DNA of 64,000 nucleotides from an uncultured Bacteroidales bacterium (GCA_964411675.1 CAYPLR010000002.1:25536-89535), one strand, 5' to 3'. Positions 25,783 to 45,485 are shown, counted from the first letter of the stretch. Notes: generated by a model from the sequence alone, not told the origin. Numbers and translations are program-made.

Positions 25783-26358
25783 ATGAAAATTATATTAGGG
25801 TCAAAGTCACCACGAAGAAAAGAACTACTAAAACAAATGGGGATTTCTTTTGAAGTTTATACGTTAGATGTAAATGAAGATATTAAAGATTTTAAAGATC
25901 CTCAGGACTATGTTACTAAAACAGCATTGAAAAAGGGAAAAGCAATATCACAAGTTTTTCCTAATGACATCGTTATTTGTGCAGATACGATTGTCGCGCA
26001 TAACAATCGTATTTTAGAAAAACCTAAAACTAAAGAGGAAGCATACCAAATGATTCAGGAATTGCAAGGAGATGCTCACTTTGTTTATACAGCGGTATAC
26101 TTAGGACTAAACGATAAGATTGAAGTATTTGTTGAGGAAACAAAAGTAACAATTGATCATATGAGCGAAGCTGAAATCGAAGAATATGTCAATACAAAAG
26201 AACCCTATGATAAAGCTGGTGCTTATGCAATTCAAGGATTTTTTGGAAGATATGTACAAAAGATTGAGGGAGATTACTATAATGTAATGGGACTACCAGT
26301 GAATAGGGTATATCGTGAAATTAAAAAATTAGGATTAACATTGGAGTTAGAGCGTTGA
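25783..26358 (+). CDS. maf: Maf-family nucleoside triphosphate pyrophosphatase
   Basis: MKIILGSKSPRRKELL start, plus DTIV and AGAYAIQG motifs. Confidence 0.85.
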   Translation: MKIILGSKSPRRKELLKQMGISFEVYTLDVNEDIKDFKDPQDYVTKTALKKGKAISQVFPNDIVICADTIVAHNNRILEKPKTKEEAYQMIQELQGDAHFVYTAVYLGLNDKIEVFVEETKVTIDHMSEAEIEEYVNTKEPYDKAGAYAIQGFFGRYVQKIEGDYYNVMGLPVNRVYREIKKLGLTLELER

Positions 26359-26379
26359 AAAAGTCAACGCTCATTTTTT
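26350..26379 (+). terminator. rho-independent terminator after maf
   Basis: GAGCGTTGA-aaaag-TCAACGCTC followed by ATTTTTTA. Confidence 0.75.
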
Positions 26380-26439
26380 ATATTTGTAAATAATGTCCAA
26401 GTGAGGATATATTTCATAGATACTCCCTTTATGGGGAAA

Positions 26440-26476
26440 ATAAAAACCACCTTTTTATCATTTTAAAAAGGTGGCT
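26440..26476 (-). terminator. rho-independent terminator of the minus-strand M42 peptidase gene
   Basis: On the minus strand: CCACCTTTTT-aaaatgat-AAAAAGGTGG followed by TTTTTATTTT, 30 nt after the stop. Confidence 0.7.
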
Positions 26477-26504
26477 TGTCATCGTTCTGACTCGGATGTT
26501 AATT

Positions 26505-27536
26505 CTATTTTTTTTCATTGTATTCAATTAGTAGTTTTAATGTGTTAATTACTCCATCAATATGTGTTCTTTCCATTCCATGAGAAGCATGAACACCAGG
26601 ACCAATTAAAGCCCCTCTAATGTTGTTTCCCGCTTTTAATGCAGCAGAAACATCAGAACCATAAAATGGATAGATATCAACTACATAAGATAATTTTGCG
26701 TTTTTTGCACAGGAAATTAAATCATTGGTTAAATCTAGATTATAGGGACCGCTAGTATCTTTAGCACAAATGGAAACATCATATTCTGTACAAGACAAGT
26801 CTTCTCCAATACACCCCATGTCTACAGCGATTAATTCATCCACCTCTGGAATATAACTAGCACCAAATCCAACTTCTTCGTTTGTTGAAAAAATAAATTT
26901 CAATGTGTTTTTTGGCTCAATATTATTTTCTAGTAAATAATCGATAAATCCAAATAAAATAGCGACGCTTATTTTATCATCTAAGAATCTAGATTTAATA
27001 AAACCAGAAGGAGTAATAACTGTCTTAGGGTCTAGAACAATGAAGTCACCATTTCCGATTCCCAAATCAAGTACATCTTGTTTGTTTTTAACTTTTTCAT
27101 CAAGACGAACAAACATATTAGCATCATCACGTGGAAGCGTGCGAGAATCTTTATAAACGTGAACAGAAGGTGCTGCGGATAAAAATGTACCTGTAAACTT
27201 TCTTCCATTGCGGGTAATAATATAGCAATATTCTCCATCATAAGTTGGAAGTATTGGCCCTCCAAGGACACTAAACTTTAATTCACCCTTGCTTGTGATA
27301 CTTCTTACCATAGCTCCTAAAGTATCAACATGAGCAGAAAAACCAGTTATCTTTTTGCCTTTTCCTGGAATAGTGATTACTAAATTACCATTTTTCGAAA
27401 CCTCATGCATAAGATTGCGCTTTTTTGCTTCCTCTTTTAGAAACTCAACAGCGACATTTGTATATCCTGATGGGCTTGGAATACTTAGAATATCTTTTGT
27501 AAATGCTAATAATTTTTCTTGGTTAATTGATTTCAT
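26505..27536 (-). CDS. M42-family aminopeptidase (FrvX/cellulase-M-like)
   Basis: Metal-ligand motifs SAHVDTLG, FLDDKISV and TNEEVGFGA. ATG 27536 follows AAAGGT. The ORF-track start 27557 has no RBS. Confidence 0.8.
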   Translation of the reverse strand: MKSINQEKLLAFTKDILSIPSPSGYTNVAVEFLKEEAKKRNLMHEVSKNGNLVITIPGKGKKITGFSAHVDTLGAMVRSITSKGELKFSVLGGPILPTYDGEYCYIITRNGRKFTGTFLSAAPSVHVYKDSRTLPRDDANMFVRLDEKVKNKQDVLDLGIGNGDFIVLDPKTVITPSGFIKSRFLDDKISVAILFGFIDYLLENNIEPKNTLKFIFSTNEEVGFGASYIPEVDELIAVDMGCIGEDLSCTEYDVSICAKDTSGPYNLDLTNDLISCAKNAKLSYVVDIYPFYGSDVSAALKAGNNIRGALIGPGVHASHGMERTHIDGVINTLKLLIEYNEKK

Positions 27537-28413
27537 TTTTGTTTTTACCTTTCGCATGGACTAGTATTTTGTTTAATTCTTCTTCACTATATCGGTACAC
27601 TTCTTTACAATAGTGACAAATAACTTCCGCTTTATGATCTTTTGTAATCATTTCATTTATTTCTTCTTTTCCTAGAGAAGCAATTCCTCCAGCAAATTTT
27701 TCTTTTGAACAATTGCATTTAAATTGTATCTCTTTCGTTTCTATGATGTGATAATCATCCTTAAAAATAAGTTTTAATATCTCTTCTTGATTAGGATATT
27801 CCATTAATAATTTTGAAAAAGAACTTAGTAATTTAATTCTACTCTCAAGAAAATCGATATCCTCTTCTAATGCATCGGGTAATAACTGAATTAAAATACC
27901 TCCAAACACTTGAGCGAAGCCATCAGTTGTAAAATATGATCCTAGACTTATTAAAGAAGGAGTTTGCTCGCTAGTTGTAAAGTAATAGGTGAAGTCTTTT
28001 GCTAAGTCTCCTGTTTGAATAGGAATTGTAGATATGAAAAAATCTTTTAGTTTTAAATCTTTAATAACTTCGATATAACCATTATATCCAAGTGTTGTAA
28101 CATCATCTATGGTTTGCTTGTTATCAAAATGAACATGTTCTCTACCTACATAACCACGAACGTTGCCTTTTGCATCAGCATCGGCAACAACATTGCCAAT
28201 GGGGCCATTACCATCAATTTTAATAGTAAGGGCTTCTTCCCCTTTCAACATTGCTCCCATCATTATCCCAATAGTCATTGTCTTTCCCAGAACAGAAGCT
28301 GCACTAGGCCATAGATCATGACGTTTAATTGCTTCATTTGTGATATCAACAGAATTAGCAAGAAAAACTCTTACTCTTTCATTTAGTGCTAGAGCTTTTA
28401 TTAAAATACCCAT
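27523..28413 (-). CDS. hslO: redox-regulated chaperone Hsp33
   Basis: C-terminal zinc centre CNCSKEKF...CHYCKEVY. GGAGGAG sits 5 nt before ATG 28413; the upstream 15 codons of the ORF-track call lack an RBS. Confidence 0.85.
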   Translation of the reverse strand: MGILIKALALNERVRVFLANSVDITNEAIKRHDLWPSAASVLGKTMTIGIMMGAMLKGEEALTIKIDGNGPIGNVVADADAKGNVRGYVGREHVHFDNKQTIDDVTTLGYNGYIEVIKDLKLKDFFISTIPIQTGDLAKDFTYYFTTSEQTPSLISLGSYFTTDGFAQVFGGILIQLLPDALEEDIDFLESRIKLLSSFSKLLMEYPNQEEILKLIFKDDYHIIETKEIQFKCNCSKEKFAGGIASLGKEEINEMITKDHKAEVICHYCKEVYRYSEEELNKILVHAKGKNKNEIN

Positions 28414-29639: not shown

Positions 29640-29660
29640 AAAAAGCCTCATAAAGAGGCT
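29634..29660 (-). terminator. rho-independent terminator of lysS (minus strand)
   Basis: On the minus strand: AGCCTC-tttat-GAGGCT followed by T7ATAA, 29 nt after the lysS stop. Confidence 0.65.
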
Positions 29661-29666
29661 ATAAGG

Positions 29667-29693
29667 CGTTAACATAGTTAACGTTTTTTTATT
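29667..29693 (+). terminator. rho-independent terminator of the plus-strand unit (overlaps lysS stop codon)
   Basis: CGTTAAC-ata-GTTAACG followed by T7ATTT. Confidence 0.65.
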
Positions 29694-43217: not shown

Positions 43218-43332
43218 TGAATGATTTAATTAAAATATCTTTCCTTTCATGATAAAATATGATAAGATAAAGAAAAGGAATGGGTGTGTTAGCATCACAC
43301 GAATTCTCATCGCCAAAAAAATGGAGGTGCCT

Positions 43333-44457
43333 ATGAGATATAGAATAGAGAAAGATTCGTTAGGAGAAAAAATTATTCCCGCTGAATCATATTTTGGAAT
43401 TCAAACTCTTCGCTCAAAAGAATTATTTCAAATAACAAAGCATGGTCAATGCCGCCAAAACATTAAGGCTTTTGCCCATGTGAAAAAAGCAGCTGCAAAA
43501 ACTAATCAAGAATTTGGTTTTATTCCTAAGGAAAAAGCAAATGCAATTAGTCTAAGCGCTGATGAGATATTGAATGGAAGACTTCATGGACAATTCGTTA
43601 CAGATTCTATTCAAGATGGCTATGGAATGGGAATGCATATGAATGCCTGCGAGGTAATCGCAAATCGAGCCAATGAGATGCTTGGTGGTGAAAAAGGTCG
43701 CTATGATAAAGTTGACCCAGTAGCAGATGTCAATTTGAATCAAGACAATGAAGAAGTAGTTGTACTAGCAGGAAAAATTACAACCATTCGATTAGTGAAG
43801 AAATTAATGACAGAAGCCAAGAAACTTGTGAATGCTTATTATGACAAAATCGAACAAGCTAATCTTGATAAAGAAGATCCAAAATCATTTGGGTATCAGT
43901 TGGCATCAATGGCAAGTATTTTAGAGAAAGATATCAAACGTCTCGACAAAGCACTAGACTCTATGTTAGAAATTCATTTTGGACTAGCTTTGAATCTTAA
44001 TGAAGAACAAGGAAGAGATGAATATTTAAAAAAATTTGTGAAGAACTTGAGTTTATCTAACAGTGAAAGCTACAACTATTCAAAAAACGCTTTAGATTCT
44101 ATTCGTAGTTTAAATGGTTTTATGATGGTTTCTTCTGTCTTAAAAAATATGATTATTAATTTTTCGAAAATAGCAAGCGATATGAAAATATTATCGAAAG
44201 AAGGAAAAATAAAAATCCCTCAAGTTCAGGATTTTCTAACATTTACGGATAATAATGTCGTTTTAGATATGGTTAGGCAAATCTCATTTTATATTATGGG
44301 AAATGATTTAACGATTTCTCGAGCAGTTGAAGAAGGAGATTTAGGAATCAACATCTTCAAACCAATGATCTTTGCTTGTTTATTTGAAAGTGCCAATTTA
44401 ATTAGAAGAGCTATTAGAACGGTTAGAGAAAAAGTAGTCGAACCAATGCAAATATAA
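43333..44457 (+). CDS. aspartase/fumarase-fold (fumarate-lyase superfamily) protein, truncated and catalytically degenerate
   Basis: N-terminus collinear with AspA/FumC (YRIEKDSLGEKIIPAESYFGIQTLRS; VKKAAAKTN). Signature catalytic blocks are altered (TS of GxxGTSxMN -> MGMHMN; SQSxND -> NQDNEE; no GSSxMPxKxN SS-loop). About 100 aa shorter than class II lyases. GGAGGTG sits 4 nt before ATG 43333. Confidence 0.6.
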   Translation: MRYRIEKDSLGEKIIPAESYFGIQTLRSKELFQITKHGQCRQNIKAFAHVKKAAAKTNQEFGFIPKEKANAISLSADEILNGRLHGQFVTDSIQDGYGMGMHMNACEVIANRANEMLGGEKGRYDKVDPVADVNLNQDNEEVVVLAGKITTIRLVKKLMTEAKKLVNAYYDKIEQANLDKEDPKSFGYQLASMASILEKDIKRLDKALDSMLEIHFGLALNLNEEQGRDEYLKKFVKNLSLSNSESYNYSKNALDSIRSLNGFMMVSSVLKNMIINFSKIASDMKILSKEGKIKIPQVQDFLTFTDNNVVLDMVRQISFYIMGNDLTISRAVEEGDLGINIFKPMIFACLFESANLIRRAIRTVREKVVEPMQI

Positions 44458-44491
44458 AAACTCCACTTATGTGGAGTCAGACTGATGACAA

Positions 44492-44535
44492 ACTACCTTT
44501 TTTAAAAAGCAATAAAAGGTAGTTTTTTATTTTCC
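44492..44535 (+). terminator. rho-independent terminator of the plus-strand unit
   Basis: ACTACCTTTT-ttaaaaagcaat-AAAAGGTAGT followed by T6ATTTT. Confidence 0.7.
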
Positions 44536-44640
44536 CCATTTGGCATCTAAATATATACCCCATATGATGATTAATCCCCACAAGGGGGATATATAGAAAA
44601 ATAATCCCCACTTAACAATCATATGAGAACAAAAAAATAT

Positions 44641-44663
44641 GAGCGTTGACTTTGTCAACGCTC
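44641..44663 (-). terminator. rho-independent terminator of DppA-like gene (minus strand)
   Basis: On the minus strand: GAGCGTTGAC-aaa-GTCAACGCTC followed by ATATTTTTTTG. Confidence 0.6.
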
Positions 44664-44687
44664 TGACTCCACTTATGTGGAGTTTTT

Positions 44688-45485
44688 TTATAGGATAAAT
44701 TTGAAAACAGTTAAGATATCAGTATAATTTGATGATTGACAAATGACACTGTCACTTCCTAAAAGTTTACAACCAGGAAAGAAAGAATTACGATAAGCAT
44801 CAGTATGGCGTTTATATTGTATTTCTATCTCAAATTTTTTTGGTAAAGATACTATATTCTGTGCCAAATCTTTAGTTAAAGCTTGAAAAACGCCTTCTTC
44901 AATTTCTTTACAAGTAATATGTGGATGTTTAGAAATGACAGCATTGAAACGTCCCTCTTTACTAGCTACGGTTTCAATATTAGGATTTATCTCTTTCACA
45001 AGATTTGTTAGGTTAGCATCTCCACTTAAAAAAGCAACGGGTACATTTAATAACGATGCATAATAAGAATTAATAGTAAATTCACTTGCAATTACGTTGT
45101 TTATCTTAACGTAATGAATGTTTGTATTCATGGTGTGGGACAAAGGATTTCCATTTGAGCGTGATGGGCTGTGATAGCCAATAAAAACAACAGCATCAAA
45201 AGAAGAATCTAATCCTGCCATCATACTGCATAGACTGCCTTCCCAACCACGATGAAGCTTAACCATTTCTGGTAAATCAAGAATGTTTAGATTTCTTGCA
45301 CTATCGTGAGCATCTTTAATAACAATTTCTGTTGCTCCTGCACGGATTGCACCCAGACAAGCAGCGTTTACTTCCCTTTGTAATTCTTCTTGAAACTCCT
45401 TATAACGAGGAGAAGAGACTTCTGTTTCTTCCCAATGGCAAATGCCATTGATACCTTCAATATCAATACTTAAAAATACTTTCAT
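44688..45485 (-). CDS. M55-family D-aminopeptidase (DppA-like)
   Basis: MKVFLSIDIEGINGI N-terminus and metal-ligand H/E pattern typical of DppA. AGGAGG sits 9 nt before the ATG. Confidence 0.65.
   Translation of the reverse strand: MKVFLSIDIEGINGICHWEETEVSSPRYKEFQEELQREVNAACLGAIRAGATEIVIKDAHDSARNLNILDLPEMVKLHRGWEGSLCSMMAGLDSSFDAVVFIGYHSPSRSNGNPLSHTMNTNIHYVKINNVIASEFTINSYYASLLNVPVAFLSGDANLTNLVKEINPNIETVASKEGRFNAVISKHPHITCKEIEEGVFQALTKDLAQNIVSLPKKFEIEIQYKRHTDAYRNSFFPGCKLLGSDSVICQSSNYTDILTVFKFIL

What the first reader, a model, noticed from the sequence alone, without database searches (positions are those of the whole stretch)
44459..44687. IR-bounded, C-rich non-coding element between convergent genes
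Identical 18-nt hairpins ACTCCACTTATGTGGAGT occur immediately after the stop of the plus-strand gene (44460) and immediately after the stop of the minus-strand dppA-like gene (44666). Their outer flanks (CAGA / TCTG) make them 22-nt terminal inverted repeats around a 182-bp core. The core contains four CCCCA motifs (very unusual at ~30 % GC), hairpin ATCCCC-acaag-GGGGAT and inverted repeat CATATGATGATTAA/TTAACAATCATATG, and no ORF. It resembles a MITE-like insertion or a small structured RNA. On each strand the shared hairpin sits directly downstream of that strand's stop codon. Each gene also has a second, conventional terminator.
Basis: seen in the sequence. Interest (0 to 1): 0.55.

Follow-up and report, generated by a model that had tools for sequence, protein, structure and literature searches.

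The report
Terminator-carrying miniature repeat between convergent genes
The flagged spacer is one of at least two copies of a small non-coding, inverted-repeat-bounded repeat that sits in the shared terminator hairpin between convergent genes and brings two terminators of its own; it is a new family of a familiar kind of bacterial "junk" repeat, not a new type of system.

Summary
Identical 18-nt hairpins at 44460-77 and 44666-83 bracket a 188-bp non-coding core between a lyase gene (+) and an M55 peptidase gene (-).

New evidence:
- A second, roughly 71%-identical copy lies in the same window at about 26342-26495, again between convergent genes (Maf and M42 peptidase). It has the same end motif (GGAGTCAGAnnGnTGACAAA; four hits in the window, which are the four ends) and the same two inward-facing intrinsic terminators (T2, T1).
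- Close relatives have empty sites at both loci. At locus 1 they carry one hairpin (AAAAACTCCAC-loop-GTGGAGTTT, a 24-27 nt spacer). At locus 2 they carry one bidirectional hairpin that overlaps both stop codons.
- One relative (L106) carries the element in the opposite orientation.
- Public short-read contigs break exactly at the element's end-proximal 30-mers, which suggests further copies or variants.

The 18-nt hairpins look like the pre-existing bidirectional terminator, now duplicated, rather than the element's own ends. The four CCCCA motifs come from internal duplications specific to this copy.

There is no support for an sRNA or a small-protein gene: no Rfam hit, no conserved promoter or ORF, and no protein homologue.

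Best reading: a MITE-like element, functionally closest to pneumococcal SPRITE. The transposition mechanism, the target-site duplication and the genome-wide copy number remain unresolved.

The parts
44460..44477 (.). Hairpin H, left copy (ACTCCAC-TTAT-GTGGAGT), directly after the lyase stop. On the - strand it is followed by TTTTTATATTT, so it is terminator-like for leftward transcripts.
   Evidence: -11 kcal/mol. A single homologous hairpin is the whole spacer in relatives L025/L030/L107/L188.
44478..44492 (+). Left terminal inverted repeat of the element, CAGACTGATGACAAA. With the preceding GGAGT it forms the 20-nt end motif.
   Evidence: the motif GGAGTCAGAnnGnTGACAAA has 4 hits in 64 kb (0.13 expected), and these are the four ends of the two copies. 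repeat I1.
44488..44535 (+). T2: intrinsic terminator for the lyase gene. It has a 12-bp A/T-rich stem (AAACTACCTTTT / AAAAGGTAGTTT) followed by TTTTTTATTTT.
   Evidence: -14.3 kcal/mol, z = -5.0. It is conserved with compensatory changes in copy 2, L106 and L022.
44536..44629 (.). Variable core. It holds four CCCCA motifs (44534, 44558, 44576, 44606), internal direct repeats (44528-42/44552-66 and 44572-81/44602-11), hairpin 44574-44590, the inverted repeat 44561-74/44612-25, and a promoter-like TTGGCA-17-TATGAT at 44540-68.
   Evidence: About 56 nt of this core have no counterpart in copy 2.
44630..44663 (-). T1: intrinsic terminator for the M55 peptidase gene (GAGCGTTGAC-AAA-GTCAACGCTC followed by ATATTTTTTT on the - strand).
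   Evidence: -16.2 kcal/mol, z = -5.5. An identical stem is present in copy 2. Allele L005 keeps the stem through two compensatory pairs.
44651..44665 (-). Right terminal inverted repeat (CAGAGCGTTGACAAA on the - strand). It overlaps the 3' half of T1.
44666..44690 (.). Hairpin H, right copy, plus a T7 run, abutting the M55 peptidase stop codon. It is terminator-like for rightward transcripts.
   Evidence: -12.1 kcal/mol, z = -5.5.
26342..26495 (-). Copy 2 of the element, in the same orientation as copy 1 when read on the - strand. Its parts are the ends CCGAGTCAGAACGATGACAAG and CTTTTTCAACGCTCTAACTCCA, T2 (about 26438-26477), a short core, and T1 (26349-26372).
   Evidence: blastn; nhmmer E = 5e-49. 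Folds. Empty sites in relatives L108-L120.
26329..26341 (.). Right arm (ATGTTAATCCTAA on the - strand reading) of the palindrome that flanks copy 2. It pairs with the left arm at 26496-26508. The two arms look like the arms of the old bidirectional terminator, split by the insertion.
   Evidence: Relatives carry an uninterrupted hairpin here (L108: CTAGGATTCATTT-CA-AAATGAATCCTAG, -22.5 kcal/mol).
26496..26508 (.). Left arm of the same palindrome (ATAGAATTAACAT on the - strand reading). It includes the M42 peptidase stop codon.

Best explanation
The region is one copy of a short (about 150-190 bp), non-coding, non-autonomous repeat element. It has imperfect terminal inverted repeats with the consensus (GGAGT)CAGAsyGwTGACAAA.

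**Where it sits.** The element lies at the apex of the single bidirectional terminator hairpin that convergent gene pairs in this lineage otherwise share.

**What it carries.** It has two inward-facing intrinsic terminators. T2 lies next to one end and T1 next to the other. Each flanking gene therefore still terminates within about 40-80 nt of its stop codon, and the insertion should be close to neutral.

**At this locus.** The old hairpin H is present on both sides as an 18-nt direct repeat.

**The C-rich motifs.** They are a by-product of internal duplications in this copy, not a conserved functional module.

**Shown versus inferred.** Shown: two copies, shared ends and terminator hairpins, filled and empty sites at two loci, and opposite orientation in one relative. 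Inferred: that the element moved by transposition (no transposase or definite target-site duplication was identified), and that T1, T2 and H actually terminate transcription.
For: 1. **Second copy.** It lies at about 26320-26514, with nhmmer E = 5e-49 and 71% identity over 193 aligned positions.
2. **End motif.** It occurs 4 times in 64 kb against 0.13 expected, and exactly at the four ends. The T1 stem-loop pattern has 2 hits against 0.00 expected.
3. **Locus 1, filled and empty.** Relatives with 86-89% identical M55 peptidase have a 24-27 nt spacer that is one hairpin (L025, L030, L107, L188). Others carry reduced elements (L022 group, 104-109 nt). L106 carries the element collinear but inverted.
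4. **Locus 2, filled and empty.** Relatives at 94% (six contigs shown, L115-L120) and at 90% (seven places shown, L108-L114, with 13 similar places not displayed) have the two stop codons 2-3 nt apart within one hairpin. The window has a 146-nt spacer, and Maf is 3-6 codons longer than in those relatives because it reads into the element end.
5. **Junction occupancy.** Both copies lie between convergent genes. The window has only 3 convergent junctions and 2 of them are occupied.
6. **Hairpin conservation.** All the terminator hairpins fold, with z from -3.6 to -5.5, and are kept by compensatory changes between copies and alleles.
7. **Assembly breaks.** Logan contigs from 4 samples end at the borders of the same two end-proximal 30-mers. 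In one sample the two contigs overlap by exactly k-1 = 30. This is the signature of a sequence present in more than one context.
8. **Possible relative elsewhere.** A Clostridia MAG (L011/L013) has the same hairpin followed by CAGACTGTAGACAAA in a different gene context.
Against: - Only two copies were seen directly. The rest of the genome was not available.
- The combined pattern of right end plus hairpin H had no exact match in 241 million JGI metagenome records. A left-end pattern and the T1 pattern had none in IMG/VR.
- In the species-representative genomes only the 18-mer hairpin was scanned, giving 13 hits, about the number expected by chance. Only L011/L013 also show the end motif.
- No consistent target-site duplication was found. 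Copy 1 is flanked by an 18-nt direct repeat, whereas copy 2 is flanked by inverted palindrome arms.
- No full-length IS with these ends is present in the window.
- At locus 1 the tree allows an alternative history: one old element, then two hairpin-hairpin deletions and one inversion.
- The terminal 7 nt of the inverted repeat in copy 1 (GTGGAGT) equal the stem of the hairpin found in the empty sites. Simple insertion into an unrelated target does not explain this.
Confidence: 0.7

Rival explanations
1. A locally evolved 3' spacer, not a mobile element. Hairpin-stimulated duplication, inversion and slippage expanded the old bidirectional terminator at the lyase/peptidase junction. The Maf/M42 copy arose once by ectopic recombination or gene conversion between terminator regions.
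For: - The core of copy 1 is visibly built from local direct and inverted duplications (D3, D6, I10).
- Hairpin H is at once a direct and an inverted repeat of itself. H-H recombination could therefore give both the single-hairpin relatives and the inverted L106 arrangement.
- No exact copy of the end-plus-hairpin pattern was found in the JGI metagenomes, and none of two other element patterns in IMG/VR.
- There is no clear target-site duplication.
Against: - The two copies share defined ends as well as their interior.
- Copy 2 sits precisely at the centre of a palindrome that is uninterrupted in two related lineages.
- Assembly graphs branch at the element's end-proximal 30-mers in several samples.
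- A related end motif occurs in an unrelated gene context in another MAG.
Confidence: 0.15
2. The core encodes a function of its own. One option is a roughly 115-nt plus-strand sRNA with C-rich seed motifs, running from the promoter-like site at 44540-68 to hairpin H plus U7. The other is a type I toxin-like hydrophobic peptide on the minus strand (MIVKWGLFFYISPLWGLIIIWGIYLDAKWGK). All four TGGGG motifs fall in its frame as Trp-Gly.
For: - A promoter-like TTGGCA-17-TATGAT matches 10 of 12 consensus positions.
- Hairpin H followed by T7 is terminator-like on the + strand.
- CCCCA spacings of 24, 18 and 30 nt are all multiples of 3.
- The 31/43-aa ORF is open and hydrophobic.
- The core is insulated from outside transcription by T1 and T2.
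Against: - No Rfam family matches, even at E <= 10.
- The promoter-like site and three of the four CCCCA motifs lie in sequence absent from copy 2 and from the L022 and L106 elements.
- The ORF is interrupted in copy 2 (read directly from the sequence) and has no Shine-Dalgarno sequence before its ATG.
- It has no Pfam or NCBIfam hit.
- It has no homologue among 5.8 billion proteins, and it is not itself called as a gene there.
Confidence: 0.07
3. An invertible DNA switch. The 41-nt inverted repeats are recombination sites, and the 188-bp segment flips between two orientations.
For: - The element is collinear but inverted in relative L106.
- Contigs break at the inverted-repeat borders.
- A promoter-like site lies inside the segment.
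Against: - No neighbouring ORF that was scanned is a recombinase (SHMT, lyase, M55 peptidase, YcxB-like and one ORF with no Pfam hit).
- Either orientation would point the internal promoter at a gene's 3' end and into a terminator.
- L005, the only alternative allele seen in near-identical strains, is a sequence variant of T1 and not the flipped orientation.
- Inversion between species is equally explained by independent insertion.
Confidence: 0.04

Closest known systems
[quoted passage not shown] 2011, PMC3049150)
   Same: - A small AT-rich interspersed repeat of a low-GC Gram-positive bacterium.
- It carries a terminator-like stem plus a U-tract.
- It lies close to the 3' ends of genes.
- It is strongly enriched between convergent genes.
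- No cognate IS is known.
   Different: - No sequence relationship was established.
- SPRITE has one 18-bp duplex and only AAAA/TTTT ends. This element has 15-20 nt inverted-repeat ends and two opposed terminators.
- For SPRITE no empty site, and hence no target, could be defined. Here empty sites exist at both loci and show insertion into an existing terminator hairpin.
Classical bacterial MITEs (RUP, Correia/NEMIS, ERIC, bcr1; reviewed in PMC3184786 and PMC10969869)
   Same: - Less than 200 bp and non-coding.
- Terminal inverted repeats.
- Folds into a long stem-loop (z = -9.3 as ssDNA).
- Polymorphic between filled and empty sites.
- Can extend a neighbouring ORF, as with Maf here.
   Different: - No short, constant target-site duplication (such as TA) was found.
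- No parent IS was identified.
- Copy number is known only as at least 2.
Hairpin-targeting insertion sequences (IS1397 into REP units; IS621 and IS1594 of the IS110 family next to REP; summarised in PMC3184786)
   Same: Insertion is directed at a palindromic extragenic hairpin rather than at a plain sequence.
   Different: - Those are full-length IS elements with transposase genes, and they target abundant REP families.
- Here the element is non-autonomous and the targets are unrelated terminator hairpins (ACTCCAC/GTGGAGT at one locus, GGATTAACAT/ATGTTAATCC at the other).
REP/BIME elements
   Same: Extragenic palindromes, often between convergent genes, with proposed roles as 3'-end or terminator elements.
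   Different: - REPs are 20-40 nt, G+C-rich, present in hundreds of copies and linked to RAYT transposases.
- This element is 150-190 bp, about 33% G+C, and composite.

Membership tests
Bacterial MITE | Short (under about 400 bp) and without a transposase or any supported ORF | tested here: met
   The element is 188 bp (copy 1) and about 154 bp (copy 2). Only mechanical 43-44 aa ORFs are present. They have no family hit, no homologue, and are not conserved between the copies.
Bacterial MITE | Terminal inverted repeats shared by the copies | tested here: met
   GGAGTCAGAnnGnTGACAAA with up to 3 mismatches gives 4 hits, which are the four ends (0.13 expected).
Bacterial MITE | Multiple dispersed copies in one genome | tested here: inconclusive
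   Two copies lie 18 kb apart in the 64-kb window. Further contexts are suggested by assembly-graph breaks. The whole genome was not available.
Bacterial MITE | Filled versus empty sites in related genomes | tested here: met
   Locus 1: L025/L030/L107/L188 are empty, while the window, L022 and L106 are filled. Locus 2: L108-L120 are empty.
Bacterial MITE | Direct target-site duplication of constant length | tested here: inconclusive
   Copy 1 is flanked by an 18-nt direct repeat, or alternatively a 4-nt TTAT repeat if the ends are taken as GTGGAGT...ACTCCAC. Copy 2 is flanked by inverted arms, with at most an AT dinucleotide repeated.
Bacterial MITE | Cognate autonomous IS with matching ends | not testable with these tools
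   None is present in the window.
SPRITE | Sequence match to the SPRITE consensus; host S. pneumoniae or S. mitis | not tested
   No SPRITE model was available in the tools. The host here is an uncultured Bacilli / Acholeplasmataceae-like lineage. SPRITE has AAAA/TTTT ends (PMC3049150), unlike this element.
SPRITE | Terminator-like stem plus U-tract, located between convergent genes near 3' ends | tested here: met
   T1 and T2 meet this in both copies. Both copies lie at convergent junctions.
IS200/IS605-derived PATE | Element-borne subterminal hairpins at both ends, no inverted-repeat ends, no target duplication | tested here: not met
   Hairpin H is present in the empty sites and absent from copy 2, so it is not element-borne. 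The element does have inverted-repeat ends.
Known sRNA or cis-regulatory RNA families (Rfam 15) | Covariance-model match at or near the gathering score | tested here: not met
   Nothing reached the gathering score. The best hit was 24.4 bits against a 43-bit threshold, E = 0.24.
Type I toxin-antitoxin locus | A conserved small hydrophobic ORF with a ribosome-binding site, plus an overlapping antisense RNA | tested here: not met
   The ORF is not conserved in copy 2 or in relatives, has no Shine-Dalgarno sequence at its ATG, and has no family or homologue.

The most novel reading that the evidence does not exclude
The element may belong to a class of mobile DNA that specifically recognises the extruded apex of bidirectional terminator hairpins between convergent genes. 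It would replace that one shared terminator with its own pair of opposed terminators, so that insertion is self-insulating and nearly neutral. The duplicated palindromic target would then drive later precise excision and inversion. A variant of this reading is that the insulated core of this copy has been exapted as a C-rich sRNA.
Probability: 0.2. Interest if true: 0.6.

Novelty: new member of a known kind. Interest (0 to 1): 0.36.

Why it matters
**Origin of gene 3' ends.** The two terminators that now end four genes in this window appear to have been brought in by a repeat element. They replace the single shared hairpin still seen in relatives.

**Comparison with SPRITE.** Clean filled and empty site pairs exist here for a terminator-bearing repeat. 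These could not be found for SPRITE.

**Practical points.**
- The element explains contig breaks in public assemblies of this lineage.
- It explains a C-terminal extension of Maf.
- It warns against annotating the C-rich core as an sRNA.

It does not open a new mechanism unless the hairpin-apex targeting is confirmed on many copies.

Tried and rejected
- **Rfam.** Whole window at gathering score, and the region at E <= 10. No credible family. Relatives' loci also gave none.
- **Small-ORF / toxin idea.** Pfam, NCBIfam, tblastn against all fetched loci and a search of 5.8 billion proteins were all negative.
- **Exact-pattern scans for further copies.**
  - The 18-mer hairpin in species-representative genomes gave 13 hits, about the number expected by chance. 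They are ordinary terminators, except L011/L013.
  - The right-end-plus-hairpin pattern in JGI metagenomes gave 0 hits.
  - A left-end pattern and the T1 pattern in IMG/VR gave 0 hits each.
  - A looser end motif in IMG/VR gave 60 hits. I take these as chance: the number fits my own rough expectation for 15 specified bases, and nhmmer found no match better than E = 0.04 among them.
- **PLSDB plasmids**, distant blastn: no match.
- **IS200/IS605-type architecture** (end hairpins in the same orientation): rejected, because the hairpin is present in the empty sites.
- **Target-site duplication.** I tried to define a common one for both copies (18, 4 or 2 nt). No model fits both.
- **Direction of events at locus 1.** An NJ tree of the peptidase gene gives 2 events (two insertions) against 3 (one insertion, two deletions, one inversion). 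This is not decisive.

Full report
**1. The observation**

The sequence is as described.
- ACTCCACTTATGTGGAGT lies at 44460-77 and 44666-83. These are the only two occurrences in the window, against 0.07 expected by chance.
- The flanking genes are a Lyase_1 (aspartase/fumarase-like) ORF on the + strand, ending at 44457, and a Peptidase_M55 (DppA-type) ORF on the - strand, ending at 44688.
- The CAGA/TCTG flanks extend the symmetry to a 41-nt, 85% inverted repeat.
- One correction: both hairpins carry the loop TTAT on the + strand. They are therefore a direct repeat, and as an inverted repeat they mismatch at two loop positions.
- Four of the window's twelve plus-strand CCCCA motifs fall in 44534-44610.
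- Each gene has a second, conventional terminator. T2 is at 44488-44535 on the + strand. T1 is at 44641-63 plus a T7 run on the - strand. Both fold well (z about -5).
- On each strand the outer hairpins have their T-runs pointing outwards.

**2. A second copy in the same window**

A blastn of the element against everything fetched gave an unexpected match at 26342-26446. Reading that region and running nhmmer (E = 5e-49) shows a second copy at about 26320-26514, on the other strand. It lies between the convergent Maf (25783-26358, +) and M42 peptidase (26505-27557, -) genes.

The two copies are 71% identical over 193 aligned positions and share these features:
- The end motif GGAGTCAGAnnGnTGACAAA. 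It has four hits in 64 kb, exactly the four ends, against 0.13 expected.
- T2 followed by TTTTATTTTCCCCAT.
- T1 (GAGCGTTGAC-TTTkT-CAACGCTCT; 2 hits against 0.00 expected).

The T2 stems differ by compensatory changes (CTACC/GGTAG against CCACC/GGTGG). About 56 nt of the copy 1 core, including three of the four CCCCA motifs and the promoter-like TTGGCA-17-TATGAT, have no counterpart in copy 2. They consist of local direct and inverted duplications. Copy 2 has no ACTCCAC hairpins. Its flanks are the two arms of a palindrome (ATAGAATTAACAT ... ATGTTAATCCTAA).

**3. Orthologous loci in relatives**

The organism is an uncultured lineage. Sources name its relatives 'Bacilli bacterium' or 'Acholeplasmataceae bacterium', and they come mostly from anaerobic digesters.

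At the lyase/peptidase junction:
- L025/L030 (M55 peptidase 86% identical), L107 (89%) and L185-188 have a 24-27 nt spacer. It consists of one hairpin, AAAAACTCCAC-loop-GTGGAGTTT, a typical shared bidirectional terminator.
- The L022 group (89%) has a 104-109 nt spacer. It has a decayed hairpin, T1 next to the peptidase gene, and a T2-like hairpin next to the lyase gene.
- L106 (81%) has a 141-nt spacer in which T2 lies next to the peptidase gene and T1 next to the lyase gene. The whole element is collinear with the window's but inverted relative to the genes. The nhmmer strands agree, and decayed hairpin remnants lie on both sides.

An inversion swaps two opposed terminators and leaves both in working orientation, so either orientation is viable.

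At the Maf/M42 junction, contigs from two related lineages (M42 peptidase 94% and 90% identical) have the two stop codons only 2-3 nt apart. Both stops lie inside one hairpin:
- L115: AAAAAAACTAGG-ATTAACAC-CCTAGTTTTTT.
- L108: CTAGGATTCATTT-CA-AAATGAATCCTAG.

The window instead has 146 nt there. Maf reads into the element end and is 3-6 codons longer than in those relatives (...KKLGLTLELER*).

**4. Direction of events**

At locus 2 the simplest history is an insertion in the window's lineage, at the centre of a pre-existing palindromic terminator.

At locus 1, an NJ tree of the peptidase gene gives ((L025,L106),(((window,L005),L022 group),L107)) with L026 as outgroup. Two histories fit:
- Two independent insertions, in opposite orientations, into an ancestral single hairpin (2 events).
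- One old insertion, followed by two deletions and one inversion (3 events).

H is a palindrome present twice. It is therefore both a direct and an inverted repeat of itself, so H-H recombination could produce exactly those deletions and that inversion. I cannot choose between the two histories.

**5. Hints of more copies**

Logan contigs that carry the flanking genes stop at the element.
- In sample SRR15237811, one contig ends at 44637 and the other at 44666. They overlap by exactly 30 nt, which is k-1.
- In two other samples, contigs end at 44477 and 44506, the borders of the mirror-image 30-mer at the other end.
- I read this as the pattern left by a sequence that occurs in more than one context, either other copies or variant alleles. 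The outer branch points lie at the CAGA/hairpin border, which suggests the hairpin is not part of the repeated unit.

One near-identical strain (L005) has a T1 allele, GACTGTTGAC/GTCAATAGTC, that keeps the stem through two compensatory pairs.

In a Clostridia MAG (L011/L013) the identical 18-nt hairpin is followed by CAGACTGTAGACAAA in an unrelated gene context. By my own estimate the chance of that motif beside one of the 13 hairpin hits is about 1e-6. A related element end therefore probably exists outside this lineage, and there it is again associated with this hairpin. That association is not explained by simple insertion into an arbitrary target.

Exact-pattern scans for further copies found none. 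The end-plus-hairpin pattern had no match in the JGI metagenomes, and a left-end pattern and the T1 pattern had none in IMG/VR. The family is therefore rare or fast-evolving.

**6. What it is and how it works**

Best reading (confidence about 0.7): a MITE-like, non-autonomous repeat occupying convergent-gene junctions.
- It occupies 2 of the 3 such junctions in this window.
- It carries two inward-facing intrinsic terminators. The gene on each side is terminated by the terminator nearest to it, and the core is shielded from outside transcription.
- Insertion at the apex of the old bidirectional terminator therefore costs the host little.

The terminators are predicted only. The mechanism of movement is unknown: no transposase was found, no constant target-site duplication, and no cognate IS in the window.

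The alternatives are:
- local hairpin-driven rearrangement plus one ectopic recombination (0.15);
- an sRNA or small toxin-like ORF in the core (0.07);
- an invertible switch (0.04).

The sRNA/ORF reading fails on conservation. The promoter-like site, most C-rich motifs and the ORF are missing from copy 2 and from the relatives' elements. There is no Rfam, Pfam or NCBIfam match and no protein homologue.

**7. Comparison with known elements**

The closest functional analogue is pneumococcal SPRITE. It is a terminator-like interspersed repeat, most strongly enriched between convergent genes and close to 3' ends. Its authors suggested it may have been co-opted as a terminator, and they could not find empty sites (PMC3049150).

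Hairpin-directed insertion is known for IS1397, IS621 and IS1594 into or next to REP units (PMC3184786).

This element differs in three ways: it has 15-20 nt inverted-repeat ends, it has two opposed terminators, and both loci have clear filled and empty pairs. It is a new family of a known kind, not a new kind.

**8. Verdict**

- Observation: confirmed.
- MITE-like interpretation: supported.
- Hairpins as the element's own TIRs, and the sRNA alternative: not supported.
- Interest: moderate to low (0.36).

Noticed in passing
window 29640-29688: This is the third and last convergent junction in the window, lysS (tRNA-synt_2 family) against a 178-aa ORF, with a 49-nt spacer. It carries a T1-like palindrome (AACGTTAAC-TAT-GTTAACG; CGTTGAC...GTCAACG in relatives) plus a second hairpin (AGCCTC...GAGGCT). 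The two terminators are 'crossed': each gene's own terminator lies beyond the other's. Relatives L108 and L116 conserve the arrangement. The adjacent coding end contains GGAGTTA, which resembles the element end.
   Followed up: partly
L011:2790-3440 and L013:1550-1780 (Clostridia MAG E09__bin234): The identical 18-nt hairpin is followed by CAGACTGTAGACAAA and GGGGAT/ATCCCC repeats. It then leads into a roughly 600-nt non-coding region with degenerate repeats spaced about 236 nt apart, each containing a TTTGTGC-loop-GCACAAA hairpin. There is no Rfam match. One of the two contigs (L013) ends inside this region. It may be a larger relative of the element, or an unrelated structured-RNA array.
   Followed up: partly
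window 26342-26358: The Maf ORF ends inside the element. Its last 6-7 codons and its TGA stop are supplied by the element's right end and the T1 stem. Relatives without the element end Maf 3-6 codons earlier, inside the shared hairpin.
   Followed up: yes
L002, L003, L004, L020, L021, L184 (Logan contigs), mapped to window 44477, 44506, 44637, 44662 and 44666: Six independent public contigs stop inside the spacer. Five of these ends fall on the borders of the two end-proximal 30-mers or at the hairpin/CAGA junction. One pair from the same sample overlaps by exactly 30 nt. This looks like assembly-graph branching caused by other copies or alleles.
   Followed up: partly
L005:898-948: A strain whose M55 peptidase protein is identical to the window's carries a different T1 allele (GACTGTTGAC-AAAGTAA-GTCAATAGTC). 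It has two compensatory stem changes, and its end motif (CAGACTGTTGACAAA) is closer to the left end of the window's element. The contig ends there.
   Followed up: partly
L026:986-1677: A more distant relative (M55 peptidase 76% identical) has a 692-nt spacer at the same junction. It has its own terminator hairpins and a called 60-aa ORF on the opposite strand, with a longer open stretch around it that looks like a decayed gene. It was not identified.
   Followed up: no
window 1-64000: There is a strong coding-strand bias. Only three convergent junctions appear among about 52 long ORFs, and cumulative GC skew rises almost monotonically. Most of the window is therefore co-oriented, presumably on the leading strand.
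   Followed up: no
window 43249-44457: The 'lyase' scores 271 bits against the aspartate ammonia-lyase subfamily model, whose cut-off is 510. It covers only about positions 3-393 of a 474-position profile. It is thus a C-terminally short aspartase/fumarase-like protein of uncertain activity, conserved next to SHMT in all relatives.
   Followed up: no
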